Assembly: GCA_000002445.1 (NCBI GenBank)
Contig: CM000207.1
Location: 1,056,001 to 1,120,000, forward strand
Length of the DNA: 64,000 nucleotides
Direction: 5' to 3'
DNA from: Trypanosoma brucei
Lineage: Eukaryota
How positions within the stretch are numbered: the stretch's first letter is position 1; each line of letters starts with the position of its first letter. A model generated the notes under the pieces. That model did no database searches, was not told the DNA's origin, and saw nothing but the letters and a program-made list of their open reading frames with translations. Of this stretch, positions 8,401 to 49,567 are shown piece after piece. The position numbers and the translations under genes were made by a program.

Positions 8401-11400
8401 TTGCCATGAAAAAACACAGATCGCCGCATAGGGTCTCGGATAGCCCTAGAAGGCAAGTCCGCTCACCTGACACCATATATGTGGTAGAAGCGGTAAGGAA
8501 AATGGGCAAATTCACCGTGGATAGTTCCGATCAGAGGACATGATAGGGGGCAACTCTTCCAATGGCATTGCACCGAACGACGCACTCACCGTGCACGGGT
8601 GGAAGATAAAGACGACGAACGAAGGCCGCTGGCACAGCATGTGAACGTGGACATTCCATCCTTGAACTGAGTCCTGAGTCGACTAAAATCAAAGGAGCCT
8701 GAAAGGTTTGGGGTGCAGTGTGGAACGTTAGGAAACAACCAAATATCTCGAGGAAAGAGCGAGGAGGAAGGAGGGGCCCTTTGAGGACAACAAATGCGGA
8801 TGCTCAAACAATGAAACAGGCGGGAGTTGCTTAAACTGCATCGAGGTTACCAACCATGGGGTGAGTGGCGCCTTTTGCTATCGCTGGGGAGAAACTGTTG
8901 GGGTCGCGGCGGCGTTTCATAGCCTGGTCAAAATCAAAAAATGAACAGGAAGACTGCGGGACGAGGGTTTCTTTGGGTTACATTTCCCTGTAATTTGGGG
9001 GCAGTTTGTATTAAAATCACTGCCATTTCTTCGTTTGAAGGAGGTTATTTTCCAAGTAACTTTTCCAGAAACGCAGAAATTTCCGTTGTCGCGTCGGAAA
9101 ATAATCCTGTGGATGGCGGCTCACGCGGGGTGAAGGTCTCACCGCCGGACATAGCGAAGGGGACTGTGGGAGGCAGATTAGGGGTGCTTTCAGTACCTCC
9201 TTTTCGCCCGTTTAAAAGCCACTAGCCTCCTTATAATCTAAAGTTAGGATTTTCAATAAGGACCCTCAACAATGCAAATGATGGATATGATGGTCGCAAC
9301 GGAAGTTCGATATGAGTTTTTTTTGTTCCAACACACTCCTTACTTAACAAAGAGGTGGGGTATAGACTATTCTATGGAAATAAGTTAATCGCAGCTAACA
9401 AGGATGTGGCCAGCCCTTCCGCTTCAGCCATCTTGCACCGTTTGGACATGATCATGAAAAGACGGTCGCATGCCCAAAGGCGGGCCAAGGGAGCATCGTG
9501 GTAAAACATGATGTATTCTAAGATATCACCCCCTTGCTTCCCTTTCCGCAACTACTTAGGAAATAGGGCCATTCATCGGATCTTTCATTCGGTGTCGAGT
9601 AGGTTGCCAAATGTTTTCATGCGAAAGCGAAACATTGATCCTTTGTGACTAAAAGCCTCCCCTAATAACCACACCGTAGTATGAAGGTTAGACGGCGGCC
9701 GTTTGACGGTTCTCTGCCGAATGTTTCACGGAATCTCACGTCATATGTGGGAAACTATGTCACTGATTTTGCCTTTAAAAAAAAATGATATGATGGAATA
9801 CTTCTTTATTATTTATTTAATTGCTGCTCAATTTATGTAAACCTTCTCAATCTTTCAATGCATATTTTTCTCGATCCCCCACCATTCCCGTGCTTAGAGG
9901 AAAACGATACTATTTCCCGTGGTAATTTACTTCGTCGTTCCGTGAGCATTTGTTCCCTACCCCAAACAAGCCACTTGTTTCCACATATTTGAACAACAGG
10001 CCCCAATAATCCTTCCAATATTTCCACTGAACTACCGCCCTAACTCTTTTACCTTACACACAATCGGCAACAAAAAAAAACATCTTTCAACGAACTTTTC
10101 TCTGCGTACCAAGAGGTCCGTGGATTGGTGACGGCCCGCCTGCACGGGGCTGCGGGCCCTAAATCATTGCTCAGCCGTTAACGGACCTGCTGCGGGCGAG
10201 ATGGCGCGCTGTTGCCATGGCACTTTCCCTGGACCCACAGCTCGCCAAGCAGGTGGCAGCCACTTGTCCGCTCCCGACCCAGCAAGCCGCTAAACAGTAA
10301 TGTCACGCTGGGGCGGCTGTTATCATCGCGACCTCAGTGCTCTCATTTTTTTTTTCCGCGTCGGTACCCACGCAGGTGGATGAACCCTCCCAGGAGGGTT
10401 TTTACCTGTTGGAAGGGTGAACCTCCTCTGAAATTTTCTTTAAATTTTGCTGTGCGCATACGCTACTACGAAGAAATGCGAAGGAAAGTCAGAAGGGGAA
10501 AGCGGAGGCTGAAGCGTTGAATGGTAAAAAAAAAACATAAAGAGAACAGATATTATTAAAGTGGAAGGTCACAGTTTGAAGTTTGCAATAACAACGAGTG
10601 TCAGCAGCAGCCGGCAGCAGGAATGAAGAAATATTTAGAGAAGTGTTTGTCGTGGGGGGAGAAGGCCGAAGGAGGAAGCGCCTGAGCTTTTTATTGAGTC
10701 TGATACTGTAAATATCAGTGTTCTGCTTTCTTCCCCATCAATTTTTCATTCCTAAACATTGGTTTGCTGGCCTTTTCTCGGTGAAACGAAACTGCGAGGT
10801 GGGCGCTTTTCATTTGTCTTCAAGTTTCCCCCTTACAAAGCTCCTCAACAGTTGGTCTTATTCTGGAACGACCTTACAGTTTAGCCATCTCTATTCCCCA
10901 GCACCCTCTCCCAGTACAACACATGACCCTTTCTTTCCCCCTCTTTCGTCCCGCGCGCATCTCAAATCTACCCTCCGCGTTGTCCAATATATGTGGAAAG
11001 ATGCTCAGTGTCCTGCTGCACGGTTTCTTTTATGTTTCGGACAAGGTTTGCACTAATTTTCCAAAGTTTCCTATCCACGCCCTTTTTGAGGTCCACAGGC
11101 ATCACACATTTTCCCCACTTCTCCTCTAGATCCTCCCCAAGGACCAATGTTTCCCTCCTTCCTGGTACTCTCGAAAACCAACTGACCTCCCTCCATCAGA
11201 CCATTTCAATATTCAAAGCACATCCTCCGATAACTCCCAGCACTGCTGAAAAACACTCCTGAACCACCCAGTCGAAAAATAATCACAATTAAAAACGGCC
11301 CCTTTATCCCCCGAATTTGCTTTATATACAGCGCTTCGAACTCTTTTGTACCGCCTTTCCCATGGCGATGTCAATCATATCCACGTTGCGGCATGGCCCG

Positions 11401-12253
11401 CCACTCCGCTCAGGTGATGAAAGGCAAGCACCCGCATCTTATTCCGTTGGAGTGGATCGCGGCGGAAGGGCTTCAGCACCACACCAAAGCTTAGACTATG
11501 ACAAATGCGCTACACAGCAGGCGCCATCATAGGAGGGTCCCTGGGCACGTTCTGACTTCCCGCAAACGGTGCCATCCGCAGGAAAATGCTGGGCAGTGCA
11601 GACGTCAATTAGAATCCCGGGTGCTTTTTTTTTCGGTATAAATTGGAACGTTGCTGCGCTCTTAAACGAAGTGAGCAGCACCCGTCACCGCGTTGCCTTC
11701 AGCCGCGATGCAAAGAGAGATATACCTATTCCGATCCCTGAAGATATCCTTCTGGAGGTGAACTTCTCGAAGGGTTCATTACACGATCATTTCCATTTTG
11801 CGGTATGTCCCATACAAATACTCGAACTAACACAAGCCTCCGCTTTTCCCCTCGTCGAAAAGGAGGGTACGCCAGAGAAAAACTTGACGATCTCCTTCAG
11901 GATGGTCCACGAGTATTTGGTGACGATCCCAACTTTCATTCTCTTGTGCCATAGATGTCTCCCCCTATGCGGTGGAAGTGGCTTCACAGCTCGACTAAAC
12001 GCAGAAAATAAAAACACCGCCGGAAAGACCCACGAAACTGTGTGTTAAGACTTGGGCCAGGGGCGCTGGTCCCACATACGGTGTAATTTCTTGAAAAGAC
12101 TGTTTTGTTGCGAAAAGGAGCCCTCAACCCACGGCGTAAAGCTGCCGTTCGATCATATTCTTCCACGGCCACGTCGGGTCGGACGAGCCGCTATTTTCAC
12201 TGCAAATATCCTTACAAGCATCGCATCAGCGGAAATACCATAACTTGTGGGAA

Positions 12254-12805
12254 CTAGAACTCGCCACGCAGGGGAAAACTGAGACGATTAAGGAAGAGGG
12301 ACATATCCACAGTCACGACGACGCGCTTGCAATCATAGTTTGCGAGGCGCCGATCGCCGCAGTCTGGCAGGTAGAACAATATCCATAAACCTTTCCCCAT
12401 GGACAAAGAGGTGGCTGAAATGGAAAATAAGATTAATAACACCACGGAAAACACTGAACGGAATCGTCCTGTAACGCAGGGTCGACCGCATTTATTACCG
12501 TGCTCGATTCCCAACGTTGTCGAAACAAGTTCTTCAAAATGAGCATATCTGACAAGAAAAGCCTGAAACGTCAGCAGGCGAGTTGTAGCCTGCTCAGTGG
12601 AAACCTCGGCATGAGGATCGCACTGCACGAGAGAAGAATAGGAGCATTTTCCTTGTAACTTCGACCACTTCTGGAGGGTCAAATTCTGATCTGTCCTGCT
12701 TCCCGAGCGGCACTCACCATCACAAGGATGATAGAAGAATTTTGTGAGAGCACCTGACAACTGATTGACCAGTGAAAGTACCAGAAGTAATTTAAAAAAC
12801 GTCAT
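12254..12805 (-). CDS. Orphan minus-strand ORF, 183 aa, with a predicted N-terminal signal peptide and one internal TM segment. It may be spurious.
   Basis: ATG verified on the minus strand ('cat' at 12803-12805). Hydrophobic N-terminus 'MTFFKLLLVLSLVNQLSGA' and an internal hydrophobic stretch 'VFSVVLLILFSISATSL'. It lies alone inside the gene-poor region and opposite to the dominant coding strand. Confidence 0.15.
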   Translation of the reverse strand: MTFFKLLLVLSLVNQLSGALTKFFYHPCDGECRSGSRTDQNLTLQKWSKLQGKCSYSSLVQCDPHAEVSTEQATTRLLTFQAFLVRYAHFEELVSTTLGIEHGNKCGRPCVTGRFRSVFSVVLLILFSISATSLSMGKGLWILFYLPDCGDRRLANYDCKRVVVTVDMSLFLNRLSFPLRGEF

Positions 12806-14372
12806 CCTCTTTAATGCCTATTCCGGAGCATCTCATACAGTGGCCCAACGCGGAGGGTAGTGCAAAAAAAAAAACGTAAAGTTGGTGGAGAAACCCGCCC
12901 GCCCTCCGTCCAACCTCCTTTCAAACAGTGCTAAAGGCGGCACGATACTTAAGCAAACCACTTTCCTAACGGAAATAACTCAAAAGAAAATGGGCAAATG
13001 GCACAGCACCAGGCCCCCTCCACTGTTAGTAAGCGCAGCGAACTTCCTTCCCACTTTGAGGGAGCGTCGCAAGAGATAATATCCAACCCCGACTTGGCAT
13101 CTTCGAAAGCGGCCTGGCGATAAGGAGAGGAAATGAAGATGTGTCTTCAGAAGGGACTGAATATTGCAGCCGTTATAGGAATCCGCATTTACTCCGGCAG
13201 ATTGATCATGAACAAAACAGGGTGTGTGGTGCTCGGGGGACGTTTTGATCTCACAGTTGCGCCGGCAGTCGCTGGCAACCGCTTCAAAATGAGCTTTTCT
13301 TCCCTTCGCTCAAATATTGATGATCTTTTGTTTGTTTTACCTCCTCTCACAAATGAAGAACACGGTGGTGAACGCAAACTGGCGTTGCCACTCTCCATTA
13401 CTCCAAGCATGCATCGCACAAATACACGCGCACAGCTTGTGTATATACGATATCGCGTGATCATGCAGGGCTTTTCAAATATCAGCGACACACCATTGAT
13501 ATTCATGCCTTCTTAACTCTTTTTCACCCAATCTATCATTCCACATCATTTCTCCCACTAGAACACAATGGTATGGAGTAATAATGTGAGGTGAAGCACA
13601 TACATATGATGTGAGAAGGAGAGGTGTGACACTGTAGTGTTTCATCCGAAGGAAGAGTTAACAAATAACATATACAGTAGCCACACCTCCCATATTGTGC
13701 ACATAATGCCTCATGGTATATTATTAGTATGTACAGGGGAAAACTATGTCGATATATTATAACAAACCTTCACAGCCACAAAATATACGGTTTGCATTAT
13801 TCTCACATTTCTAGAAAAGCGGCAAACACAAAGGAGCTTATTATCATATTCCTATAAATTCCCCATACGTGTGCAAGCTGTCCCCTCAGCATATAATATA
13901 TTGTGATATGGTGAACATAACCCCCCACCAGTGCGACAAATATGGGATCTATGTAAATATAAATAAATATACACTTGCCTCTTGGACATATTGGATGTCA
14001 TATACAACAGCATTTGAGTTGTATTCTCTGTTAGGCCAACTTATGTATATATAATAGAGTGAGGCCTTTCCAGACTGTGATGAAATGAGTTGGTGTGTAT
14101 TAATGACAACTCTCCCAAGGCATACGGAAGAGATACTATTTCCCCTGAGGGCTGCCGAATCTTTCCTCTGGAACTTTGCCCTGGGGGCTCCGATGCATTT
14201 TGACGCCCTAAGGGATCCAGCAGCGCATTTTCGTTCTGAACCGGCAATGTCCACACTTCAGCGATGCTGGTGGGCTGCGTCCATACTTCGTCCTATGCAG
14301 CCTCCTTTCGTGAGATGGCCTCGCATTTCGACTCGGCTCCGTTTTGCAAGATTCCCGCCTCCCCGCAAACCT

Positions 14373-14891
14373 CCAGTACACGATGAAAGTTGAGGCATTT
14401 CTTTTTCCCATTGAACATTCAACTTCCGCGCGTGGCACTGCACCGCCAAGACTTCAGTCGCTTACTAGATGCAAGTCCATTCGTGTCATTCCAATATGCC
14501 GGTAACCATGGAGAAATGGTCATTCCACTTTCCAAAACCCTCACGTACGTGCGTTTTACTTCTGATGGAGGAGAAAATAAAAGAGTTACTGCGTCCTCAA
14601 CAATCATATTTACGAAGTAACAATGCCTCGCTATCCGATGAACGACCACCCGCATTCCGTTAGTCTCTTTAGGAAATGGCATTTGGGTTCTTATTGATAA
14701 GCAACAACAAAACACATTTGCATGCATTTATATTCGAAAGGATGCGTGCGCGAGGTTACTTTACCCGACTTATGTTATTTGTCGATGCCGTTTCGATATA
14801 ACAAAAAAAAAGGAGGTTGGCTCTTTTTCTGAGTTCTAGGCAAGGTGCTCGACGCTGACACATTGGTGAGGCAAGTGCCGAACTGTGGAAA
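14373..14891 (-). repeat. Copy A of a ~520-bp dispersed repeat, in inverted orientation relative to copy B
   Basis: The reverse complement of 14373..14891 aligns base for base with 46424..46951. Checked at both ends: '…gtggaaa' ↔ 'tttccac…' and 'ccagtacacgatgaaagttgaggcattt' ↔ 'aaatgcctcaactttcatcgtgtactgg'. Only a few substitutions (e.g. agtcttgg/agttttgg) and a poly-A length difference. The flanks diverge immediately. Confidence 0.85.
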
Positions 14892-15730
14892 GACTATGGT
14901 TTGATCAGCGAATTGCTGCGGGGGATGCGGCGGTGGTTGGCACGGGCTCGTGTTGCTGTCGCCTGAAACGTTCTCTGCGATGTCACCGCCGGTATGAGTT
15001 TGTTGTGGTCGGGATGCTCGGATGCCGATTCTTTGTGGGCTTTGAGAAAGAACGTTTTGATTCCCCACCGCTGGTAACCAGGGATGGGTGTCACGTCTAG
15101 TATCTGATTGTGGTAGGAAGTGGAACAATAGAAATGTAGGTTAGTGGTTTCCCAATCGGGCTGGTAACAGGCTCAAATTGTTTAAAAAAATCAGTTTGTG
15201 AGGTAGACTACCGGTGTGAATAGGGGAGTTCTTCCGCATTTGACTTCTTTGACTGCTTGCTGATCTTACGTTCTACGTACCTTTTCCAAGAAACTGAAAG
15301 AGGGATCGGTGCCCTTACTATGCAGAAGAGGTATTGTTGGGCATCTGCTATTCGCCTTAGTGTTTGTGATTTTATCATTTAAGAAATTGGTGCATTGCTC
15401 AGTAGCGCCTGAAGTGTGTGTGGGGATTAGTTGATACTGTAACGAAGAAAATCGTTTTTGTTATTTCGTGAGCATTACAGCTTTTTATTTTTAAAGGTAG
15501 AAGTTCTTTTCAACCTCTTTGGAGTGCCGGATACAGTATGAATGACTACTAATTGAGGGTTGATTCCTGCGTTGCCTTCCTAACAAAATGCTTTCCAGCA
15601 CTTCATCTACTGTTTCATTTGTTAGTAACTCTTTTTTGGTTTTTGTGACCCTGATTATTCATGAGGGAGATGAGGGGTAGTGAATTACGTGGTTGTGTTG
15701 CTGTGTTTAGGCAAATGTACGTGACTCGAG

Positions 15731-15768
15731 TGTATGTATGTATGTATGCATGCATGTATGTATGTATG

Positions 15769-15802
<34 letters not shown>

Positions 15803-15803
15803 G
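15731..15803. repeat. Compound microsatellite (TGTA/TGCA)n-(TA)n-(GT)n
   Basis: Direct reading: 'tgtatgtatgtatgtatgcatgcatgtatgtatgtatgtatatatatatatatatatgtgtgtgtgtgtgtgg'. Confidence 0.9.
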
Positions 15804-16511
15804 TGTTCTCTTAAGAATGTGTACCTACACCACACGCGTTGTACATAGAGTTAGATGTGGAATTACATTGTATTGGTGCGATCATATCACTCAGCACCGT
15901 TGTTTTTGTTCGTATTTCATTTGTCTGATTGCTTTATTACATATTTCCCTATTGATGTGTTATCAAGGGGCATACAAGGTTATGTCTGTGTCGCTTTGGC
16001 GGACATTTTACCGCGAAGCGGAGCATAGTTGAAGTGAATGTGGCGCGCTAATAACCTGAGATATGTTACTATTGTTGGTACGGTGCGTGGTAGATTGTTG
16101 CGTCACATTCCCACCGTTGTTTGGATGGAATGCCCATGCACGTGATATTTGCGGCTCCTTTCCTCCTTTTTTAACATAATGATTTTTATGGCAGCGGAGG
16201 GTCCTTGCAGCATTGCCATTTGACGTGTTGCACGCAGACCCTTCAGAGTAAAGGACCGTTTGTTAATTGACGACGGGCTATGCGAGGTGCAGTGCTACTT
16301 TCTCTACAAGGACAAAGGACGTGTGTGCGTGTGATATTTAGTTCTTTCATTTTAATTGCATTTCCCCTTGACTAACGTTATTTGATGGCACGCCCCCTGC
16401 AAAGCACGATATACAACAAAAAATTTTCTTATCTGCAGCAGTGAAAAGTTTTTATTTTTTCTGATCCATTTGACTTTTAGTATAAAGGGCAAGGTAAAGT
16501 TTGGTTACCCG

Positions 16512-16512
<1 letters not shown>

Positions 16513-16540
<28 letters not shown>
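16513..16540. repeat. (TG)14 microsatellite
   Basis: Direct reading 'tgtgtgtgtgtgtgtgtgtgtgtgtgtg' followed by 'cgtc'. Confidence 0.9.
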
Positions 16541-16543
<3 letters not shown>

Positions 16544-18968
16544 CATTGGTTTGTTGAACTCAAGGGATTTTCAAAGTTTTGTTTAGAGATCTTTTTTTAG
16601 TTACTACGAAGATATTTAATTTTCCCAGTCCTTTACGGCTCATTTATAGATAAGATGCTTTGTGTAACTTCAGCTATATTTCTTTTGGACAGAATAAAAA
16701 ATAGCTGCGTACATTCCACTCTTTCCCACAATATAAGGCACGTCACTTTTTATATTCGCACGATATGCCGTCTCTGTTTCCCAACACATGTGCTTAGTTT
16801 CACCGACTCAGCTGAACGCTACGGTTTGGTTTGGTTGTGCGTCCTACTTGGTTGTCATCTCTTCCTGTTTTCGTTTATAACTAAGGAATACACAGAAGGA
16901 TGGACTAGAACTCAAAACGCTTTGTGCCGTCCGTCAAATAGATAGATGCCTCTCGCAACGCCCTAAGTTCTTGATGCCTTGTGAAAGGCCAATGAAGGTA
17001 TTAACACAGAAACTTCAATGCAGGAACCAAGGGAAGAATGGAGATAAGTTGGTACTGGAGAGATGTTTTTCGTGTTGTCTTTTTGTTACCTTCGTCTGAT
17101 GCGTTCACAGTGGTTTGGGTATTATTAATGGCGTACCCTGTAGCTTCTGGTATTTTTGGCTGCGTCAGTCGGCCAAAGTTTCAAGTTTTTTTTAAAATAT
17201 TTGGATACCAAACGGACAACGTAAGGTGGCTGGAGCATAAACAAAAACACTCTATTATTCACAACGCTCTTTCTTTCGGTTTTCGAACCAACTGGAGGAT
17301 AACGAATGCTGTACCGGTGACGCAGTGTCGCGGGCAATGCAATGGACCTAAAAAGCACTGAGTACCAAGGTTACTAGCTGACCACTTGTTAGGGGTGTGG
17401 GTTCGTCTCCCATGTGGCGCTTTCCTCTCCCGGGGAATGGCAGCACGTTAAAGGACTACAAGTGCTGACCATTGAAAGTAAATGACACGAAGGCGAAATC
17501 AAACAGGATGCGGTAGCATCATCTCCATGTCCACGCACCATGAAATTTGGAGAAGCGATGTAAAGTTGTATCATTCTTTTATTGGCTCCAGCGCACGTGT
17601 CTTACATGTTGGATGCTTTGGTGTATGTTTCCCATGAGGTGACACATTCGTCGACCTCACGGGACCTTTCGTGTTGTTTATACCACCAATCACCACAATA
17701 GGAAGAAAAAGCAATCATCTTCATGTGAACCAATGGCCGTGCGACTAAGTAAAAGCTTAGCCGTGTATGGAAGATGCCACCTTCATTTCTTGTCGTGTAG
17801 TGACAACATCAATGATTACTATATGTGTTCTGTTTCATCTTCCACCGCAATGATCGCTTTTACGATTCCCGCTTATGCGGGTGGATTGCATGTATGTTTT
17901 GATGAGGTGATGTTTGATCCTATTCGTTTGAATCACTTATGATCGCAGGTTCAAGATGTTCGATACATTTGCCAATGGGAGATGACACAGCACCCTCTTC
18001 TATTGATCATTATGGTCCATAATTGGCGTGTATTCCCTTTCTTTTTCCCTTTCTTTTTTTTTTTGCAAAAAAAAAAAGGAAGCTCATGTGAACTATGCAA
18101 CACCCACTGTCTCGTGGAGGGGCTCTAAATTCTATGTTCTTAGTAACAATCAATTCTTTGCCTTCCCCCAAGGTGTCGGTGAAAGGTTGACACCAGCTAT
18201 CGTCTTTAGTGTGTTGTCCGCCACGGGAAATGCTGCAAGTGGAAGGTGTTATGCCGTTTAGCTTGGACGACACCATTGGGTGATTTTCAGGTATGAAACT
18301 TACGACTCATTAGTCGTTACATGGAGTGTAAAACGGATGAATGTACCTGCCGTTTTGCCCCACACGGACCGTTGCAAAAGGCACAAGACACATGTTCGGC
18401 ACTCCAGCAGTTTGAAATGGGGGTGACACTTCGGAAGACATGCCGTCCTCAGAGTTTTTTTTTGTAGGAACGAATGGAGAGGCTTTTGAGTGTTGGGAAA
18501 ACACGGGATAGTCTTCGAAGGAGGAGTTACTGAAAGTCAGTAGGTGGTGGTGTGCCCTCTTGCTCTCAGCGCACTTTACCGATTCCAGTGTTAAGCAACA
18601 TTATGGCAAGCCCTGATTATTGGAGCAATTCTGGGGAGGCTCGACCTGCGGGTGTCTCCTCGGAAGTTGCTATGCCAGTTATCACTTCCTCTGTAGAATA
18701 TAATGTTTATGGTTATTGTTGGTCTATGGAACTATGTCTGTTGTTTGTGTGGAGTATATGCTGGTCGCAACTTTTTTTTGCTTTTGTGTGTGCGTGTGCG
18801 GATCACTGCTGTTGAATGTGCTCACCTTCATTTTCCCTACAGCAAACTGCTGATCCGACATCTGATTTTGTCTTTTCCCCCATCGAAAACATTTACATAT
18901 CTGTCGGCATTTCTTTATAAATTAAATATTCGGCATAGTTTGCGCGTTTCGTATCCATTTGGTGAGTG

Positions 18969-19415
18969 ATGTCTCGAGTGTACGTTGGTAACATTGAAAA
19001 ACGTGCAACAAAAAAGGAACTACTTGAGTTCCTGAAACCAATGGAGGAACATATCGAGGACTCGTGGTTAGCTCGGCGACCTCCGGGGTTCGCCTTCATC
19101 ACAATTGCTCCGTCTCGTGCGTGTGAATTCGTGGAGACTTTCAACGGAAAGGAGTTTCGTGGAAAGGCTCTTTTGGTTGAGCTGTCCACAATGTCGTCAC
19201 AGCGGAAGGACGGAGAGAACCGCCGCCGCCGAAGCAGTGATAGCAGACGTGATAGCAGTCGACGCAGGAGGAGGTCTGGAAGCCGCTCAAGGCACAGTGA
19301 TAGACGGCGCGACCGGAGTCGCAGCCGCAGTCACCGGCGGGACCATTCAAGAGACAGAAAGCGCCGTTGCCGCTCACGCAGCCGTAGTAGCTCTCAGGGG
19401 CCTTGTTCCCCGTGA
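18969..19415 (+). CDS. Small RNA-binding protein with an N-terminal RRM and a C-terminal Arg/Ser-rich (RS) domain, SR-protein-like
   Basis: ATG at 18969; the track's start at 18966 is a GTG. 'VYVGNI…GFAFITIA…FNGKEFRGKALLVEL' has the RNP-2/RNP-1 pattern of an RRM. The C-terminal ~60 aa are RS/RD/RR dipeptide repeats. Confidence 0.6.
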   Translation: MSRVYVGNIEKRATKKELLEFLKPMEEHIEDSWLARRPPGFAFITIAPSRACEFVETFNGKEFRGKALLVELSTMSSQRKDGENRRRRSSDSRRDSSRRRRRSGSRSRHSDRRRDRSRSRSHRRDHSRDRKRRCRSRSRSSSQGPCSP

Positions 19416-19758: not shown

Positions 19759-21714
19759 ATGGAAGGAAAAAATGAGAGAGACCAATACCAGGATTTGGCA
19801 CTCCACTTGAGTTTCTCATCTGGTACAGAGTTGAGCGATTCATATGTAATGTCCTATAGGGGCAGCGATGGGTGTTTTGGCGATGCTGTGTTCAATGGTG
19901 CCGCACCCGCTCGGAACGTCCTCTTTGGGAACATTCCATGCAAACAAAGAGTGGAAAAGTTTAGTATTCAGGATAGCAGCTTAGCGAATCGGTGTAACAT
20001 GCAGGTAAACTTAAAGCGTGACACACCCGTTCTTCAAGACCCTTCGGACACATTTGCAAGGATGAATCAAGTGATGCACCAAACTTTGAAGTATGTAAAG
20101 GAGGTGGAAAGTATTGATTTTAGTAGCAGTAACATAATAGATTTCAACGGTGAAATCATGGAGGACCCAAGGAGAGTGTTTCTTTCGGTATGCACCAGTG
20201 TGTTTGCTAACTTCTCGTTCTGCTCTCAGTTAGATGTAGAAAAACTTCTGAGTTTTCTATCAGATATTTTCGAGAACTATTCTGAAGACAATGCTTATCA
20301 CAACGCGGTCCACGCGGCTGACTCGGTTCAAATGTTGTACCTCATATTGAGGGAGAAACCTGCAATCCTGTTATTTACCAACGAGGAGATTCTTGTTTGC
20401 TTTTTGGCTACGCTTTGTTTGTCATTCATACACCCAGGTGTAACAGACGCGTTTCTGGCACGCATTGACCACCCGCTAACCCTTGTTTACGGTGACGTTA
20501 CAACCCAGAGGTCAGCAAGCCTTACGGCCTTCCTCTACTTCCTTAATAGAGAGGAGAACCGTTTCATAGATCTGTCCTCCAGCGCTGGCACTCGTCCCAT
20601 TTCCCAATATTTGAGGGAGTTGTTGGTTGAAACGGTTCTGGCAACTGCTCCTCGATCCCGTAGGACGCTGCTGAGTGATCTTCAGGATGTGGCGGCGTCT
20701 AATGTGGTATCGGTGGATGACCTTAGGTTCCTGCTCTCAGCGATTGTGACTCTATCGGATAGTGCGCTAGCATTGCGCCCGCGGGCACAATTTATCAGCT
20801 GGTCGCGGCTACTTTGTGCTGAGTGGCTGAGCGAGGCAACTCAAGAAGAGAGGAGAAGGATGGACCCACTCGTGCCGAACCTCCAAAAGCGAGTCGGTGA
20901 AGGTGGACTCACGATGGTATCGGATTACTGCCGGGTGTGGCTACGACCTGTGGCTGCTGCGACCCGTGCACTGGTTCCGCAGGACCTTTACGACAATTTG
21001 GAGCGAAACAGTGATGTCCCCACTTTTGGTGAAGTTGCAGCCTTCTCTGTGCCGGATGTTTCGGCTGATAAGCCATGGAGTGATGGAAGTTTATCTGTTT
21101 TTGAGATTCTTCGCAAGGTGACTATGCATGCAAAGTCTTTGGACCGAAAGGCCTCAAAGCGTGCCATTCTCAACGCAACATGTGGGCGTCTGGTATCGGC
21201 CCCCGCGTCGCAATTGTCATCACCGTTCCATGCACCTTCTGAACCGTCGATTTCGTGCTCTCCGGTGGAGAAATTGGTTTCTCATCCAAGCCGGTGCGAG
21301 CATTACTTCTCGTTTTTGCGGCTTTACGACACTTACGACAGAGAGGGCCGTCCCGCAACCGAGTTTGCAGAGCAGCTAGTTTTTTTAGCGATGCAGCTGA
21401 ATCCTGATTATGTTGGGCGTTACGCTCGCGAGGGCATAGATGCGTCTTCTAAGGAGGACTGCAGCAAGATTGCGTCCCTTATTATCCAAAGTGAAGAGGC
21501 ACCATCCACCGCGGAGGTGATAGCATCCCCATTGCGCGGGGCTGAGCAGACCGATGGCTTCATTTTGCGTTTGATGGAGATGTACACCGAACGCGACAGA
21601 AACAGAAATAATTGCTCCGTCCAGAATAGCCACACAAACCTTCAGTCGACTTCGAGGTGCCTCTTGCCTTGCTCCAACCCCGTATACGGGGGTATGGACC
21701 GTGGAAGAAAGTAG
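19759..21714 (+). CDS. Class-I cyclic-nucleotide phosphodiesterase-fold protein with degenerate metal-binding residues (probable pseudo-PDE), 651 aa
   Basis: The first ATG is at 19759; the track's start is a TTG. 'AYHNAVHAADSVQ' (nt ~20291-20330) matches the PDEase signature YHNxxHAADVxQ. The downstream region aligns to PDE4-like 'AIHDVDHPGVSNQFL…LALMYND…VLATDMS' but reads 'LSFIHPGVTDAFL…LTLVYGD…VLATAPR'. The HD and the later Asp ligands are therefore replaced. Confidence 0.6.
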   Translation: MEGKNERDQYQDLALHLSFSSGTELSDSYVMSYRGSDGCFGDAVFNGAAPARNVLFGNIPCKQRVEKFSIQDSSLANRCNMQVNLKRDTPVLQDPSDTFARMNQVMHQTLKYVKEVESIDFSSSNIIDFNGEIMEDPRRVFLSVCTSVFANFSFCSQLDVEKLLSFLSDIFENYSEDNAYHNAVHAADSVQMLYLILREKPAILLFTNEEILVCFLATLCLSFIHPGVTDAFLARIDHPLTLVYGDVTTQRSASLTAFLYFLNREENRFIDLSSSAGTRPISQYLRELLVETVLATAPRSRRTLLSDLQDVAASNVVSVDDLRFLLSAIVTLSDSALALRPRAQFISWSRLLCAEWLSEATQEERRRMDPLVPNLQKRVGEGGLTMVSDYCRVWLRPVAAATRALVPQDLYDNLERNSDVPTFGEVAAFSVPDVSADKPWSDGSLSVFEILRKVTMHAKSLDRKASKRAILNATCGRLVSAPASQLSSPFHAPSEPSISCSPVEKLVSHPSRCEHYFSFLRLYDTYDREGRPATEFAEQLVFLAMQLNPDYVGRYAREGIDASSKEDCSKIASLIIQSEEAPSTAEVIASPLRGAEQTDGFILRLMEMYTERDRNRNNCSVQNSHTNLQSTSRCLLPCSNPVYGGMDRGRK

Positions 21715-22078
21715 CGGAGCGATTGCTTCCCCGTGTATGATATTTATGGAAGTGCTATGTATACGATCGTAATTGTTGCGCGTGTAGGGAACTCTTCCCC
21801 CCTTTGCATTTTATATCTTTCAAACTTATTTGGTGAATCATCGTGCCAAGGTAACGGTGGTGATGAGACCACAGAATTTTCTCCTTTTATTCCTTTTCCC
21901 GATTTTTTCAACTGTTGGCCTTGTCGATTTCTGCGGTCACTTCCTTCCTGTTACCGTGTCTGGCAATGCGATCAGTGACTTCGACTGCTGGCTGTGTCTT
22001 TGCCCTTGGTTTAATTTGCATTTTCCTTCTTTCTCCTCCACTACCTTAATTACAACGGTATGGTATTTGCAGGGACTC

Positions 22079-22282
22079 ATGGGCCCACGCATGGCCGGTT
22101 TTCTGTTAGGTTCGGTTGCTGCTGCATCGGTGGCGGCTTTCCTCGTGCAGTACGACGTACTTCGTAGAAAGGACATAACAGAGAGGGAGATTGATGATAT
22201 GGAAACCCAAGCTGCGCTGGTTAAGGATCGTTTTTACCGGGTGCAGAGCAGGTTATTGGAATGTCAGGGAGGTGATGAATAA
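22079..22282 (+). CDS. Possible small single-TM protein, 67 aa. Low confidence; the upstream part of the track ORF is probably UTR.
   Basis: ATG verified at 22079. 'MGPRMAGFLLGSVAAASVAAFLVQY' is a hydrophobic helix followed by a charged tail. It is short and has no similarity I can recognise. Confidence 0.2.
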   Translation: MGPRMAGFLLGSVAAASVAAFLVQYDVLRRKDITEREIDDMETQAALVKDRFYRVQSRLLECQGGDE

Positions 22283-25039: not shown

Positions 25040-25439
25040 TGCCTTTGTGGAACAGAAATTTTGATGCAAAAGGGAAGGAAAGAAAGTGGTAGCAGTTAAG
25101 GGATTGGGGAGGAGAGACTGTAGCTGATTAGTTATAAAAATATGATGAGGAAAATAAATAAACGTGCATATGTAGTTTTCCTTTCTTTGTTCCACTCTGC
25201 CCCATTTGTTGTGGTATTTTTAGCGCGCACTTTAGCGTCTGTTGTTCCTAACGTTGTCACTAGCTCGCTCCATATTCGTGTTCACGAGTATGTTGCCTTT
25301 CATTCGTGCATGACGAGCAAGCAAATTAGTTGCCAATAAGTGACGTGGTGCCGAATGTACAAATCCCCCTAAGAAAAAGGGCACCGAAGGATAAAAACAG
25401 GAGGGGAGGAGAAGGGGTAAAGTGTGAATGGCTGATTTT

Positions 25440-25500
25440 ATTGTACGATTTCCCCTTTTTTTTATTTTTTCCTGCCTTATAATCCTAGGGCATAACGCCA
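25440..25500 (+). promoter_or_regulatory. Polypyrimidine tract, a candidate trans-splice acceptor / polyadenylation-coupling signal, upstream of TOP1S
   Basis: 'ttgtacgatttcccctttttttttattttttcctgccttataatcctagg' is a U/C-rich run followed by AG dinucleotides ~250 nt before the ATG at 25758. This is the kinetoplastid gene-boundary signal pattern (established knowledge). Actual usage is not verifiable here. Confidence 0.35.
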
Positions 25501-25757
25501 GCGGAGTAATTTTGATACATCGGTACACTTCTATACACGTGCGTACGCACATACAGGGAAAGAGGGGTGAGGGCGTTATGAGAGGCTGGAAGGGTAGGGA
25601 TAGTTACGCTACCACTGCGTGCATTTGTTATGTGCTTTGGCCGTTTTTCCCCAAGTCCTTTGACGTACGAACCCTGACCCCTCTTTTCTCTCTTACCTCT
25701 TTATCCTCATTTGCACTTTTTTTTTTGCTTCAAAAATGTGTACCACCCTTTAGAGCA

Positions 25758-26579
25758 ATGTCTTCGGCTAACTCGGAGGTACGTAACGGTGGTTCATCTT
25801 CAGTTGCCGCCGCGCAACCCCGTGCGGCATCGCCCGCGAAGATCCCCGTGAAGGTACCCTACTCACTTGCCAAAGTTCCAATGCCGCGGCTTGTACCGGC
25901 GAAGATGCCGGCACCAAAGCGAGCAGCTGAGAGCGAGGCTCAACATCGCGGCAACAGGGAAGACAGTGACGACGCTCTGCTTGAGTCCTCCGCACCCTCT
26001 AAAAAACCAAAGAAGGAGGAGTCAAAAAAGGCTCCTCTAGTGGAAACGGAGTCTAGCAGTAGCAGCGAGTACAGTTCTTCTGACAGCGATGATACCGATG
26101 CTAGTGACAGCGAAAGCGAGGGCTCGAAAACGTCTACAGTTTCCGATTCAAGTGACATTTCGGACGACGAAGAAAGCGTTTCTGAGGACAATCTGACATT
26201 TTTTGAATTAGCCGAGAGAAGCGGCCTCATGAATGATATCAAGAATAAGGTAAACTCTGGGGAAGGGGAACAGGAGGAGGAGGAGGAGGTGCACATCGAC
26301 GGGAAGCCACCACGGCCCAAGTTTCTTCGTAGCTTTCCTCGCGATATTGAGGCGGAAATCGGGAAACACGAGAAACGCCTCAAGGATGTTGAGAATATGT
26401 TAAAAATGAAACAGGATAATAAAACTGTTTCGTTGGGCACAAGTAAGGTAAATTATATAGACCCACGGATTGTGTGCTCCTGGGCCAACGAGAACAACGT
26501 CCCCATTTCGAGGCTGTTTTCTGCGACACTTCAAAAAAAGTTCCCTTGGGCACTGAAGGCAAGGGACTTTACGTTTTGA
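25758..26579 (+). CDS. TOP1S: DNA topoisomerase IB small subunit, 273 aa: the C-terminal catalytic-tyrosine fragment of the kinetoplastid heterodimeric TOP1B
   Basis: ATG verified at 25758. The track's upstream extension is a hydrophobic pyrimidine-tract translation. The C-terminus 'LGTSKVNYIDPRIVCSWANENNVPISRLFSATLQKKFPWALKARDFTF' matches the human TOP1 C-terminus '[50 protein letters not shown]', including the active-site Tyr. The N-terminal half is a Ser/Asp/Glu-rich low-complexity region. Confidence 0.8.
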   Translation: MSSANSEVRNGGSSSVAAAQPRAASPAKIPVKVPYSLAKVPMPRLVPAKMPAPKRAAESEAQHRGNREDSDDALLESSAPSKKPKKEESKKAPLVETESSSSSEYSSSDSDDTDASDSESEGSKTSTVSDSSDISDDEESVSEDNLTFFELAERSGLMNDIKNKVNSGEGEQEEEEEVHIDGKPPRPKFLRSFPRDIEAEIGKHEKRLKDVENMLKMKQDNKTVSLGTSKVNYIDPRIVCSWANENNVPISRLFSATLQKKFPWALKARDFTF

Positions 26580-40681: not shown

Positions 40682-40919
40682 GGGAATGACGGCTAGTTCA
40701 TCATTATTCCAGTTTTCCCAATCCATGACTTTCCTTTTCGAAAGTACAGGCACCCCATTCCAGAGAAAGAAACACTAATGCTTGGTGCGTGTGAGTGGAA
40801 ACTTTCCTGTTTTAACATTTGCATGTATTGCGCCGTGAAACATCCCTTTGCCCTTTGTTTTTCATTATTTTCAATCACTTAGTCAGTGGGACCTGCATCA
40901 AGTCATAGTTGGGTCACAT

Positions 40920-41834
40920 ATGAGTGAAACAAACCCAGTAGTGAGAGGTGCCGTTGGTGTACATGAACTTGCACCACTCTGTTCTCACGTTTGTTTGCCA
41001 GGGGAATCGGTGCTACTGCTGGAACCCACGGCTGTCGTGACCCTTGGTAGTGGTCTTCATCCACTCCAACAAGATGGCAGTGATGACCGTAAGGAGAGTT
41101 TTGAAGCCTCAGGTGAAGAAGGAAGCACTGTTGTGGTTTCCGAGTTTTGTGGACCTGTGTTGCGCACCGCGGGGCCAAATCACACACAGCTATACAAACT
41201 CAATGGACCGGCGGCACGTCGCTACATGTACGCAGCCAGGGACCCCGTAGTGGCAATTGTAATGAAGAAGAACGCGAGTTATTACTCGTGCTATACTGGT
41301 GCTGCATCGTTGGCTGTGCTTGACGCTCTTGGCTTTGATGGTGCCACGAAAACAAACAAACCTCGATTACAAGAGGGTGACGTTGTTTATGCCTTTGTGA
41401 AAGGGAACGCTGATGCCTCATCCCTTGATACAAAGTTTGATGATGGTCGTGTGGTGGTTTCCTCCAGTGACGAGGTGGAACTAAGTTGCATGGCTGCTGA
41501 GGTCGGTTTAGTGGCGCGGGACTGGACCTCAGCAGAGGCAGTCTTTGGCCCGCTTGTGGGTGGCACAGTTGTTCGTGTCGCGTTACCTTATGCGCGCAGT
41601 CTTATCGACGGCCCTGCTTCGCGGTTGCTTGCACTGTTGGGAGATCGCGTGCCGTACGATGTGTGTGTTGGAGTCAACGGTCTCGTCTGGGTGCGAGGAC
41701 ATCCCAGTGCTGCTGACCCCACGGCAGCCGCCCGCCGTACTGTTGCTGTGGCGGCGTGTGTAGTTGAGGCGCAGGATGCCGCGACACTGGAGGAGATGGA
41801 AGCCCACGTACGCGGTTATTTTCCCAAGGAGTAA
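40920..41834 (+). CDS. Exosome cap subunit-like RNA-binding protein with S1 and KH folds, RRP40/RRP4-type, 304 aa
   Basis: ATG verified at 40920. 'GDVVYAFVKGNADASSLDTKFDDGRVV' is S1-like. The C-terminus 'FGPLVGGTVVRVALPYARSLI…LLALLGDRVPYDVCVGVNGLVWVRG' matches the RRP40/RRP4 KH consensus '…LGxxFPFEVAVGMNGRIWV'. Confidence 0.5.
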   Translation: MSETNPVVRGAVGVHELAPLCSHVCLPGESVLLLEPTAVVTLGSGLHPLQQDGSDDRKESFEASGEEGSTVVVSEFCGPVLRTAGPNHTQLYKLNGPAARRYMYAARDPVVAIVMKKNASYYSCYTGAASLAVLDALGFDGATKTNKPRLQEGDVVYAFVKGNADASSLDTKFDDGRVVVSSSDEVELSCMAAEVGLVARDWTSAEAVFGPLVGGTVVRVALPYARSLIDGPASRLLALLGDRVPYDVCVGVNGLVWVRGHPSAADPTAAARRTVAVAACVVEAQDAATLEEMEAHVRGYFPKE

Positions 41835-49338: not shown

Positions 49339-49567
49339 ACTTGTGCCCCAATTCTAAAATATGAAATCTTATTATTCAAATGTAAATTATAATGTTTGCT
49401 CACAGTTAGTGGTGTCACAGGTGGCTAACCGCCGTGGCTGAAGGGAGGGGGAACGTAGTTTGCTGCCACACGCCATATATACGTGAAATGCTATGGGTTC
49501 CCTGTGTTTGTGTCTTGATTTGCATTCCCTTATCATTTTGATTAACCACAAAGGCTGTAACGTAAAC

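What the first reader, a model, noticed from the sequence alone, without database searches (positions are those of the whole stretch)
19759..21714. PDE-fold protein that keeps YHNxxHAADV but has lost the HD…D metal ligands (candidate pseudo-phosphodiesterase)
'AYHNAVHAADSVQMLY' (nt ~20291-20338) is an unmistakable class-I PDEase signature. The downstream spacing matches PDE4-type catalytic domains. The residues that coordinate the second metal and the nucleotide differ, as the PDE4-like vs ORF pairs show:
- 'AIHDVDHPGVSNQFL' ↔ 'SFIHPGVTDAFL' (HD lost)
- 'VLENHH' ↔ 'VTTQRS'
- 'VLATDMS' ↔ 'VLATAPR' (Asp lost)

A PDE scaffold without its catalytic dyad could act as a cyclic-nucleotide binder or decoy, not a hydrolase. 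The protein also has a ~250-aa unique N-terminus and a ~300-aa unique C-terminus.
Basis: partly seen in the sequence, partly recalled or inferred. Interest (0 to 1): 0.6.

Follow-up and report, generated by a model that had tools for sequence, protein, structure and literature searches.

The report
Overlooked dead phosphodiesterase-like protein of trypanosomes
This Trypanosoma brucei gene, annotated as a cAMP phosphodiesterase, encodes a protein with the enzyme's fold but without its catalytic metal site, and it belongs to a conserved, apparently unstudied "sixth PDE-like" family of kinetoplastid parasites whose real function is probably regulatory rather than enzymatic.

Summary
ORF 19759-21714 (+) encodes 651 aa and is 100% identical to T. 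brucei TREU927 XP_827050.1, "cAMP-specific phosphodiesterase, putative". It matches Pfam PDEase_I at 82 bits, and its model superposes on human PDE4D.

Aligned to PDE4D2:
- Kept: H160, H164 and H204.
- Lost: H200-D201 (now L221-S222), H233 (S254), D272 (A297) and Q369, the purine-recognising glutamine (V387).
- There is no "HD" dipeptide anywhere in the protein.

The Asp in VLATDMS is not the metal ligand. The true ligand, D318, survives in T. brucei as D334 but varies among orthologues.

By locus the gene is none of the five named kinetoplastid PDEs (A, B1, B2, C, D). It lies beside the TopIB small subunit gene Tb927.9.6940. Orthologues occur across Kinetoplastea, including Bodo saltans, and all 27 examined lack H200 and H233.

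A linker motif (SLDRKASKRAILNA) and a new ~110-aa C-terminal helical bundle are more conserved than the PDE-like domain. My best reading is a catalytically dead regulatory or scaffold pseudoenzyme. Cyclic-nucleotide binding is neither supported nor excluded. I found no paper describing it as inactive.

The parts
19759..21714 (+). Complete ORF of 651 aa plus stop. It is T. brucei brucei TREU927 XP_827050.1 / EAN76720.1 / Q38EQ0, 'cAMP-specific phosphodiesterase, putative'.
   Evidence: ORF list. 100% identity to P0001.
19759..20040 (+). N-terminal region, aa 1-94. Predicted disordered and poorly conserved.
   Evidence: pLDDT is 23-41. Identity to other Trypanosoma is 39%, and 12-18% beyond the genus.
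20041..21078 (+). PDE-like (class I PDEase fold) domain, aa ~95-440. The Pfam core is aa 180-400.
   Evidence: PF00233 82.2 bits. PDE4D E 5e-20. Foldseek target-normalised TM 0.69-0.75 to PDE4D.
20293..20340 (+). Retained signature AYHNAVHAADSVQMLY. H181 corresponds to PDE4D2 H160 and H185 to the metal ligand H164.
20419..20424 (+). L221-S222 in place of the metal ligands H200-D201. H225, three residues on, corresponds to H204 and is kept.
20509..20520 (+). R251-S252-A253-S254 in place of E230-N231-H232-H233.
   Evidence: The H233 equivalent is absent in 27/27 family members.
20647..20649 (+). A297 in place of D272, the 'ATDM' Asp.
   Evidence: It is A/V/S in all family members.
20758..20760 (+). 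D334, corresponding to the true fourth metal ligand D318. It is retained in Trypanosoma but is F/S/R/C/H/E/I/A/M in other members.
   Evidence: Asp in 14/27.
20917..20919 (+). V387 at the position of the invariant glutamine Q369. phmmer places the neighbouring M386 here instead. Either way there is no Gln within 9 residues.
21079..21183 (+). Conserved post-catalytic linker, aa 441-475: SDGSLSVFEILRKVTMHAKSLDRKASKRAILNATC. It contains a basophilic-kinase-type site, R463-K-A-S466 (nt 21145-21156).
   Evidence: Invariant columns H457-A473. Identity to Bodo-like members is 46%, against 27% for the PDE domain. Motif scan.
21286..21603 (+). C-terminal helical-bundle domain, aa ~510-615 (R.EHYFSFLRLYD ... 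LVFLA.QL ... EEAP.TAE ... TDGFIL.LM.MY). It has no Pfam family and no informative structural neighbour.
21676..21687 (+). C-terminal NPVY motif. It is conserved as NP[VI]Y in Trypanosoma and most Bodo-like members.

Best explanation
The gene encodes a catalytically dead member of the class I cyclic-nucleotide phosphodiesterase fold. It is a pseudo-PDE and forms a sixth, unnamed PDE-like lineage of Kinetoplastea.

Shown:
- The fold is kept.
- The binuclear metal site cannot form, because H200 and D201 are replaced by Leu-Ser.
- H233, D272 and the substrate-recognising Gln369 are also gone.
- The losses of H200, H233 and D272 are shared by every family member, from T. brucei to the free-living Bodo saltans. 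The protein has therefore been maintained without canonical catalysis for the whole history of the group.
- The strongest constraint has moved to a short post-catalytic helix carrying an invariant SLDRKAS..AILNA motif and to a novel ~110-aa C-terminal helical bundle.

Inferred:
- The protein acts non-enzymatically as a regulatory or scaffolding subunit in nucleotide or cAMP-related signalling.
- The PDE-like domain serves as a structural or interaction module.
- The C-terminal bundle serves as a protein-protein interaction domain.
- The RKAS serine is a phospho-switch for a basophilic (PKA/AGC-type) kinase.
For: Fold and homology:
- PF00233 scores 82.2 bits.
- PDE4D matches at E 5e-20 with a residue-level alignment.
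- Foldseek gives target-normalised TM 0.69-0.75 to PDE4D.

Dead active site:
- 9/16 class I invariant residues are kept. H200, D201, A220, E230, H232, H233 and Q369 are lost.
- H200 is 0/27, H233 is 0/27 and Q369 is 3/27 across the family.
- There is no HD dipeptide in the protein.
- The closest active-looking relatives, P0046/47/49, keep 14-15/16.
- The top PDB hit 2pw3 (PDE4D-cAMP complex) carries N at the D201 position. From my own knowledge, this D201N mutant was made to stop hydrolysis. If so, loss of this one residue suffices.

Functional, not decaying:
- Intact full-length orthologues exist in all Trypanosoma sampled, and in Phytomonas, Angomonas, Strigomonas, Porcisia and Bodo saltans. 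Environmental kinetoplastid-like sequences add more.
- The structured regions are 63-78% identical within Trypanosoma, against 31-45% in disordered segments.
- T. b. gambiense and T. equiperdum differ from T. b. brucei by one residue each.
- The syntenic Leishmania gene LinJ.04.0030 was detected as protein and rose on purine starvation (PMC3937319).

Constraint outside the PDE domain:
- The linker is 46% and the C-domain 44% identical between T. brucei and Bodo-like members, against 27% for the PDE domain.
- The C-domain is predicted at pLDDT 85.

Not one of the five named PDEs:
- The gene lies four ORFs upstream of the TopIB small subunit gene Tb927.9.6940.
- PDEA is Tb927.10.13000 and PDED is Tb927.3.3340. 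PDEC is Tb03.27C5.640, and PDEB1/2 are Tb09.160.3590/3630, 930/925-aa GAF proteins.
- The original L. major genome screen reported only five PDEs.
Against: - No biochemical data exist. Inactivity is inferred from sequence.
- H181, H185, H225 and D334 are conserved within trypanosomatids. A degenerate single-metal or ligand site is therefore conceivable.
- The AF2 model is poor (pLDDT < 50) exactly over aa 225-280, around the former metal site, so pocket geometry could not be inspected.
- The scaffold/phospho-switch role is inference. No interaction, localisation or phosphoproteomic evidence was retrieved.
- The C-terminal domain has no informative structural or sequence relative.
- The alignment around Q369/F372 differs between phmmer and MAFFT.
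Confidence: 0.65

Rival explanations
1. Non-hydrolysing ligand sensor or decoy. The dead pocket still binds cAMP, cGMP, AMP or a purine nucleoside, and the protein transduces or buffers that signal.
For: - The fold and pocket-forming helices are kept.
- H181, H185, H225, the aromatic Y390 and several hydrophobic pocket positions are conserved within trypanosomatids.
- The inactive PDE4D D201N mutant still binds cAMP in crystal structure 2pw3.
- The Leishmania orthologue rises on purine starvation.
- From my own knowledge: trypanosome cAMP effectors are largely unknown, and trypanosomatid PKA binds nucleosides rather than cAMP.
Against: - The glutamine that reads the purine (Q369) is V/A/L/I/S in 24/27 members.
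- N321 is L/F in the trypanosomatid members.
- Positions 329, 332, 336, 337, 340 and 368 vary among orthologues.
- The metal ions that anchor the phosphate cannot be bound.
- In Bodo-like and other members even H160 or H164 is Arg.
- The pocket is therefore not under uniform constraint across the family.
Confidence: 0.15
2. Prozyme-type partner. The dead paralogue heteromerises with a weakly active canonical PDE, PDEA being the obvious candidate, and activates or localises it. This would parallel the trypanosomatid AdoMetDC, DHS and PRMT1 prozymes.
For: - Trypanosomatids repeatedly use dead paralogues as activators (PMC5201418, PMC3663545, bioRxiv 10.1101/776112).
- LmjPDEA and TbrPDEA complement yeast only weakly. 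They give little or no measurable activity in lysates, which the authors ascribed to 'some specific property' (PMC1431542).
- PDEA (LinJ.18.1100) and LinJ.04.0030 both rise on purine starvation.
Against: - No interaction data exist.
- From my own knowledge: class I PDE active sites lie within one subunit rather than at a dimer interface, so the mechanistic rationale is weaker than for AdoMetDC or DHS.
- The pseudo-PDE domain is closer to PDE4 and to environmental active PDEs than to any solved kinetoplastid PDE. Its relation to PDEA could not be tested because no PDEA sequence was available.
Confidence: 0.12
3. It is still an active phosphodiesterase, as annotated, using a rearranged or mononuclear site or a different phosphodiester substrate.
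For: - The database annotation reads 'cAMP-specific phosphodiesterase, putative'.
- H181, H185, H225 and D334 are retained in T. brucei.
- Two papers list the orthologues among PDEs.
Against: - Two of four metal ligands and the Mg-site Asp are absent.
- No compensating His or Asp is available in the domain.
- The remaining ligands are themselves not conserved in the family: D318 is 14/27, and H164 and H160 are Arg in some members.
- The annotations are homology transfers, not experiments.
Confidence: 0.05
4. A decaying gene with no function.
For: The catalytic residues have decayed progressively and differently in different lineages.
Against: - The full-length ORF is intact in every lineage.
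- There are more than 100 invariant columns among 14 trypanosomatid sequences.
- Identity to Bodo-like members is 44-46% in the linker and C-domain.
- The protein has been detected in Leishmania.
Confidence: 0.02

Closest known systems
Human PDE4 catalytic domain (PDE4D2; class I PDEase, PF00233)
   Same: - All-helical fold (target-normalised TM 0.69-0.75).
- The YHNxxHAAD signature, HPG, E339 and the overall helix order.
- About 23% identity over ~295 columns.
- Best sequence match among solved structures.
   Different: - It lacks H200, D201, E230, H232/H233, D272, N321 and Q369.
- There is no UCR1/UCR2: no PF18100 hit at E <= 10.
- It carries a different C-terminal domain.
- It is predicted to bind no binuclear metal centre.
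Kinetoplastid PDEA, PDEB1/B2, PDEC and PDED (unified nomenclature; Johner 2006 PMC1431542; PMC13340794)
   Same: - The same organisms and the same fold.
- The same database product name, 'cAMP-specific phosphodiesterase'.
   Different: - Different locus: chromosome 9 beside Tb927.9.6940, and Leishmania chromosome 4 (LinJ.04.0030).
- No GAF or FYVE domain.
- All five canonical L. major PDEs keep essentially all 16 invariant residues. This protein keeps 9.
- It was not counted among the five in any paper I read.
Trypanosomatid 'prozymes' (AdoMetDC prozyme, DHS prozyme, PRMT1 prozyme)
   Same: A catalytically dead paralogue of an enzyme, conserved in trypanosomatids.
   Different: - No partner enzyme or activation has been shown.
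- This family is older, being present in Bodo.
- It has acquired an extra domain.
Degenerate EAL / HD-GYP c-di-GMP phosphodiesterase domains of bacteria that act without catalysis (e.g. PMC3484386, PMC5579053)
   Same: The concept is the same: a second-messenger PDE fold kept after loss of catalysis and reused for regulation.
   Different: Unrelated fold and kingdom. Many of those still bind the nucleotide, whereas here the nucleobase-reading residue is lost.

Membership tests
Class I cyclic nucleotide phosphodiesterase (PF00233 PDEase_I): fold/homology | Significant match to the family profile. | tested here: met
   82.2 bits against a cut-off of 24.8, E 6e-23, aa 180-400 covering profile positions 1-222 of 238.
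Class I cyclic nucleotide phosphodiesterase: fold/homology | The predicted 3D structure superposes on solved PDE catalytic domains. | tested here: met
   Foldseek top 50 are PDE4D, PDE4B and PDE8A. E ~5e-9, target-normalised TM 0.69-0.75. The model is low-confidence over aa 225-280.
Class I cyclic nucleotide phosphodiesterase: active enzyme | Four metal ligands H164, H200, D201 and D318 (PDE4D2 numbering). | tested here: not met
   H185 and D334 are present. H200 is L221 and D201 is S222. There is no HD dipeptide in the protein.
Class I cyclic nucleotide phosphodiesterase: active enzyme | The 16 residues listed as conserved across class I PDEs (Johner 2006 Table 1). | tested here: not met
   9/16 are kept. 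Active-looking relatives keep 14-15/16.
Class I cyclic nucleotide phosphodiesterase: active enzyme | Invariant purine-recognising glutamine (Q369). | tested here: not met
   V387 by MAFFT, or M386 by phmmer. No Gln lies within 9 residues.
Class I cyclic nucleotide phosphodiesterase: active enzyme | Hydrolysis of cAMP or cGMP. | not testable with these tools
   This needs a recombinant enzyme assay or yeast PP5 complementation.
Kinetoplastid PDEA-PDED (named families) | Orthology or locus identity with Tb927.10.13000 (PDEA), Tb09.160.3590/3630 (PDEB1/B2), Tb03.27C5.640 (PDEC) or Tb927.3.3340 (PDED). | tested here: not met
   The gene lies four ORFs upstream of the TopIB small subunit gene Tb927.9.6940. 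Direct sequence comparison with PDEA and PDED was not possible because no sequences were available.
Kinetoplastid PDEB / PDEC | GAF-A/GAF-B domains (PDEB) or a FYVE domain (PDEC). | tested here: not met
   Only PF00233 is significant in the Pfam scan at E <= 10.
PDE4 subfamily | UCR1/UCR2 upstream conserved regions. | tested here: not met
   No PDE4_UCR (PF18100) hit. The N-terminus is disordered and non-conserved.
Trypanosomatid prozyme (dead paralogue that activates its active paralogue) | Catalytically dead paralogue of an active enzyme encoded in the same genome. | tested here: met
   Sequence-level inactivation. Five active PDE paralogues are reported in T. brucei.
Trypanosomatid prozyme | Forms a heteromer with the active paralogue and stimulates it. 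| not testable with these tools
   No interaction data were retrieved. Only circumstantial evidence exists: weak PDEA activity when expressed alone.

The most novel reading that the evidence does not exclude
The pseudo-PDE is a functional component of trypanosome cyclic-nucleotide signalling. It would be either a prozyme-like activator or localiser of a weak canonical PDE such as PDEA, or a non-hydrolysing sensor that couples a purine ligand to its conserved C-terminal domain. In either case it would be switched by phosphorylation of the invariant RKAS serine. This would add a missing effector or regulator to a pathway whose downstream components in kinetoplastids are largely unknown.
Probability: 0.2. 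Interest if true: 0.8.

Novelty: new variant of a known kind. Interest (0 to 1): 0.5.

Why it matters
Kinetoplastid PDEs are drug targets, and cAMP signalling controls trypanosome social motility, tsetse colonisation, osmoregulation and differentiation. The field works from a list of five PDEs.

This analysis has four consequences:
1. A sixth PDE-fold gene is conserved from Bodo to Trypanosoma and Leishmania.
2. It is almost certainly not a hydrolase, so its database name is misleading. Two papers have counted the orthologues as PDEs.
3. Its conserved parts point to a regulatory protein with a new domain.
4. Naturally occurring dead class I PDE domains do not feature in the pseudoenzyme literature I could search.

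The protein offers a concrete, testable candidate regulator or effector. It is also a caution for inhibitor and omics studies that count it as PDE activity.

Tried and rejected
- **Exact-sequence contig look-ups** for the window protein and P0001 found nothing on record. Genomic context of orthologues therefore could not be read directly. Synteny was inferred from the literature instead.
- **Word-index search with the C-terminal domain alignment** returned only one transcript fragment and not even the family's own members. It says nothing about where else the domain occurs.
- **Search with the active-looking relative P0046** found only distant algal and metazoan-type PDEs. It did not reveal which canonical kinetoplastid PDE is the nearest active paralogue.
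- **NCBIfam** gave nothing. PDB sequence search of the C-terminal 239 aa gave only E > 1 matches.
- **Neighbour-joining tree of PDE domains**. The trypanosomatid clade is clean. The Bodo-like and distant members group with other H200-less PDE-like proteins, which is probably long-branch attraction. I therefore rest family unity on the shared C-terminal domain, not on the tree.
- **Literature searches** by candidate gene IDs (Tb927.9.6880-6920, guessed old Tb09.160 IDs, accession numbers) found no paper on the T. brucei gene. The exact TriTrypDB ID was not determined.
- **dN/dS** was not attempted. Close relatives differ by a single residue, and other species are too diverged for synonymous sites.
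- **Active-site geometry** could not be inspected. Model coordinates and PAE are not exposed, and the relevant segment has pLDDT < 50.
Full report
**1. What is there**

The window is Trypanosoma brucei brucei TREU927 DNA. The ORF at 19759-21714 (+) has an ATG at 19759 and encodes 651 aa. It is 100% identical to XP_827050.1 / EAN76720.1 / Q38EQ0, 'cAMP-specific phosphodiesterase, putative'. All long ORFs of the window lie on the + strand, as in a trypanosome polycistron.

Neighbours include:
- an RRM plus RS-rich protein at 18966-19415;
- the topoisomerase IB small subunit at 25428-26579 (Pfam Topo_C_assoc);
- RRP40;
- an AMP deaminase at 56335-61407.

The literature gives the T. brucei TopIB small subunit as Tb927.9.6940, with LmjF04.0060 and TcCLB.506625.110 as its counterparts (PMC4266802). 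The target gene is therefore on chromosome 9, about Tb927.9.6880-6900. I did not determine the exact ID.

**2. Check of the observation**

The motif AYHNAVHAADSVQMLY is encoded at 20293-20340. Three results show that the protein has the PDE fold:
- Pfam PF00233 scores 82.2 bits, E 6e-23, against a cut-off of 24.8.
- The best solved-structure relatives are human PDE4D at E 5e-20. The kinetoplastid PDEC scores 1e-12, and PDEB structures are not among the best 60.
- An AlphaFold2 model built on 14 orthologues has mean pLDDT 59.8. It is good over most of aa 120-440 but below 50 over aa 225-280. It superposes on PDE4D with target-normalised TM 0.69-0.75.

The phmmer alignment to PDE4D and two MAFFT alignments give the same mapping in PDE4D2 numbering:

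| PDE4D2 residue | T. brucei residue |
|---|---|
| H160 | H181 |
| H164 | H185 |
| H200 | L221 |
| D201 | S222 |
| H204 | H225 |
| E230 | R251 |
| H232 | A253 |
| H233 | S254 |
| T271 | T296 |
| D272 | A297 |
| D318 | D334 |
| E339 | E355 |

Q369 maps to V387 by MAFFT, or to the neighbouring M386 by phmmer. No Gln lies nearby under either alignment.

Johner et al. 2006 list 16 residues as conserved across class I PDEs. All five canonical L. major PDEs keep essentially all of them (PMC1431542). The T. brucei protein keeps 9.

The whole protein contains no 'HD' dipeptide, and the domain has only four histidines from the signature motif onward.

The top PDB hit 2pw3, titled 'PDE4D-cAMP complex', carries Asn at the D201 position. 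From my own knowledge, this D201N mutant was made to stop hydrolysis. If so, loss of D201 alone is enough to inactivate PDE4.

- The Asp of 'VLATDMS' (D272) is not the metal ligand. The real ligand, D318, is retained in T. brucei.
- The 'VLENHH' pairing is offset by two residues.
- The unique N-terminus is ~95 aa, not ~250.
- The C-terminal ~210 aa are not featureless.

**3. It is not one of the five known kinetoplastid PDEs**

| Named PDE | T. brucei gene | Source |
|---|---|---|
| PDEA | Tb927.10.13000 | |
| PDED | Tb927.3.3340 | |
| PDEC | Tb03.27C5.640 | |
| PDEB1/B2 | Tb09.160.3590/3630 (930/925 aa, with GAF domains) | |

The original screen of the L. major genome with class I catalytic domains reported only five genes, on chromosomes 18 and 15 and, for PDEC and PDED, chromosome 29.

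The present gene has only a PDEase hit in Pfam and sits at a different locus. Its orthologues were identified by synteny:
- TcCLB.506625.80 is mentioned once, as a developmentally regulated 'cAMP-dependent phosphodiesterase' (PMC4821583).
- LinJ.04.0030 was detected as protein and rose, together with PDEA and PDEB1/2, in purine-starved L. donovani. The authors treated it as a genuine PDE (PMC3937319).
- The chromosome 4 AMP deaminase LinJ.04.0270 in that paper matches the AMP deaminase in this window, which supports the synteny.

I found no paper that names the T. brucei gene or notes that the family lacks catalytic residues. A 2023 review of pseudoenzymes does not mention phosphodiesterases. 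The library does not cover subscription journals, so this is absence of evidence only.

**4. The family**

An exhaustive profile search of 1.8 billion representative proteins gave 17 full-length representatives with E < 1e-89, followed by a sharp drop. Named members are:
- all sampled Trypanosoma species;
- Phytomonas, Angomonas, Strigomonas and Porcisia (Leishmaniinae);
- the free-living Bodo saltans (CUG61985.1).

Four more distant environmental proteins (P0043, 44, 45, 48) share both the PDE-like domain and the C-terminal domain.

Across the 27 members aligned:

| Class I residue | Members that retain it |
|---|---|
| H200 | 0/27 (mostly hydrophobic instead) |
| H233 | 0/27 |
| D272 | 0/27 (always A/S/V) |
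| Q369 | 3/27 |
| D201 | 15/27 (lost in the genus Trypanosoma, in P0035 and in the four distant members) |
| D318 | 14/27 |

H160 or H164 is Arg in several Bodo-like and other members. The site was therefore disabled once, early, and has since decayed differently in each lineage. This is the pattern expected when catalysis is no longer selected.

The next-best hits, P0046, P0047 and P0049, are environmental and of unknown taxon. They keep HDVGHLG, GTDM, HAADLSNP and Q369, 14-15 of the 16 invariant residues. They share family-specific features: 'HPL' after the HD helix, 'W.D' after the catalytic domain, and an N-terminal 'E..WL' motif also present in Bodo-like members. They lack the C-terminal domain. 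They are the likely active sister group. A neighbour-joining tree was not robust enough to show this.

**5. Where the constraint lies**

Identity of the T. brucei protein to Bodo-like members:

| Region | Identity to Bodo-like members |
|---|---|
| PDE-like domain | 27% |
| Linker, aa 441-475 | 46% |
| C-terminal domain, aa 510-615 | 44% |
| Intervening spacer | 6% |
| C-terminal tail | 12% |
| N-terminus | 12% |

The linker carries an almost invariant block, HA.SLDRKASK.AILNA. It appears as LLDRKASQHAILNA in Bodo and as SLNR.VSKMAILNA in another clade. It conserves an Arg at -3 of a Ser, and fits R-[KR]-x-S in most members. That is the consensus of basophilic kinases such as PKA, which is my inference from general knowledge. 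In the full-length model the block is a helix, but at low confidence.

Trypanosoma and most Bodo-like members end in NP[VI]Y. Leishmaniinae-like members end instead in QRDSPIRLPV.TD.

**6. Mechanism**

Shown:
- The fold is a PDE fold.
- The canonical binuclear site cannot form.
- The purine-reading glutamine is absent.
- The gene has been under purifying selection since before the trypanosomatid/bodonid split.
- The most constrained parts are non-catalytic.
- The Leishmania orthologue is made as protein.

Inferred: the protein is a non-catalytic regulatory or scaffold subunit. The PDE-like domain would act as a structural or interaction module, the C-terminal bundle as a binding domain, and the RKAS serine as a phospho-switch. 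By position the linker helix corresponds to the regulatory helix that follows the PDE4 catalytic domain and can cap its pocket. That comparison rests on my own knowledge and is untested here.

- Against it: loss of Q369 and N321, a variable nucleobase sub-pocket, and no metal anchor.
- For it: the conserved His cluster in trypanosomatids, and the purine-starvation response in Leishmania.

A prozyme-like partnership with a weak canonical PDE is an attractive special case.
- For it: trypanosomatids repeatedly use dead paralogues as activators. PDEA from both L. major and T. brucei shows almost no activity when expressed alone.
- Against it: there is no direct evidence, and class I PDE active sites are not at subunit interfaces.

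**7. Comparison and novelty**

The protein is homologous to class I PDEs and closest to PDE4-type catalytic domains. It fails the features that define an active member. It should be filed as a PDE-fold pseudoenzyme, not as a cAMP-specific phosphodiesterase and not as PDEA-D.

As a category, a dead paralogue of a signalling enzyme is familiar. The particular case appears undescribed: a naturally dead class I PDE domain, conserved across Kinetoplastea, fused to a new conserved helical domain and outside the accepted five-gene inventory. I rate it a new variant of a known kind, of moderate interest. The score would be higher if a ligand or a PDE partner were found.

Noticed in passing
window 5500-18900: About 13 kb with no ORF longer than 183 aa. 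There is no Pfam, Rfam, tRNA or tandem-repeat hit. GC is lower (43-49%) and GC skew is negative at 10-14 kb. The rest of the window is a dense + strand gene array, so this low coding density is unexplained.
   Followed up: partly
window 18966-19415 (+): A 149-aa protein with an N-terminal RRM (Pfam E 1.4e-5) and an Arg/Ser-rich tail lies directly upstream of the pseudo-PDE. By position it is probably the SR-type RNA-binding protein that the literature lists as Tb927.9.6870.
   Followed up: partly
window 25428-26579, 40848-41834, 49493-53332, 56335-61407 (+): - The neighbours identified are the TopIB small subunit, exosome RRP40, a 1279-aa protein with a C-terminal pseudouridine synthase domain, and a 1690-aa AMP deaminase with an ~800-aa N-terminal extension.
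- Two of them, the TopIB small subunit (LmjF04.0060) and the AMP deaminase (LinJ.04.0270), have Leishmania chromosome 4 counterparts, so the block is syntenic with it.
   Followed up: partly
P0064, P0067, P0072, P0077, P0086, P0101, P0113 (hits): Other long (788-1132 aa) environmental PDE-domain proteins also lack H200 (I, M or C instead). They keep only 6-12 of the 16 invariant residues, and the profile search matched them only over the PDE-like domain. Degenerate class I PDE domains may therefore be more widespread among uncultured protists. Their taxa are unknown.
   Followed up: partly
orthologues P0011-P0015, P0029-P0034 (alignment A1): Non-Trypanosoma orthologues start with a conserved 'MS.LP.I' N-terminus, and several end with 'QRDSPIRLPV.TD'. 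Both motifs are absent from Trypanosoma, whose proteins end in 'NPVYGG' instead. This suggests lineage-specific terminal motifs, possibly for targeting or binding.
   Followed up: no
window 21830-22282 (+): The 150-aa ORF just downstream has a sub-threshold match to Adenyl_cycl_N (E 0.0011, 19.5 bits against a cut-off of 27). This is most likely chance. I note it only because of the cAMP context.
   Followed up: no
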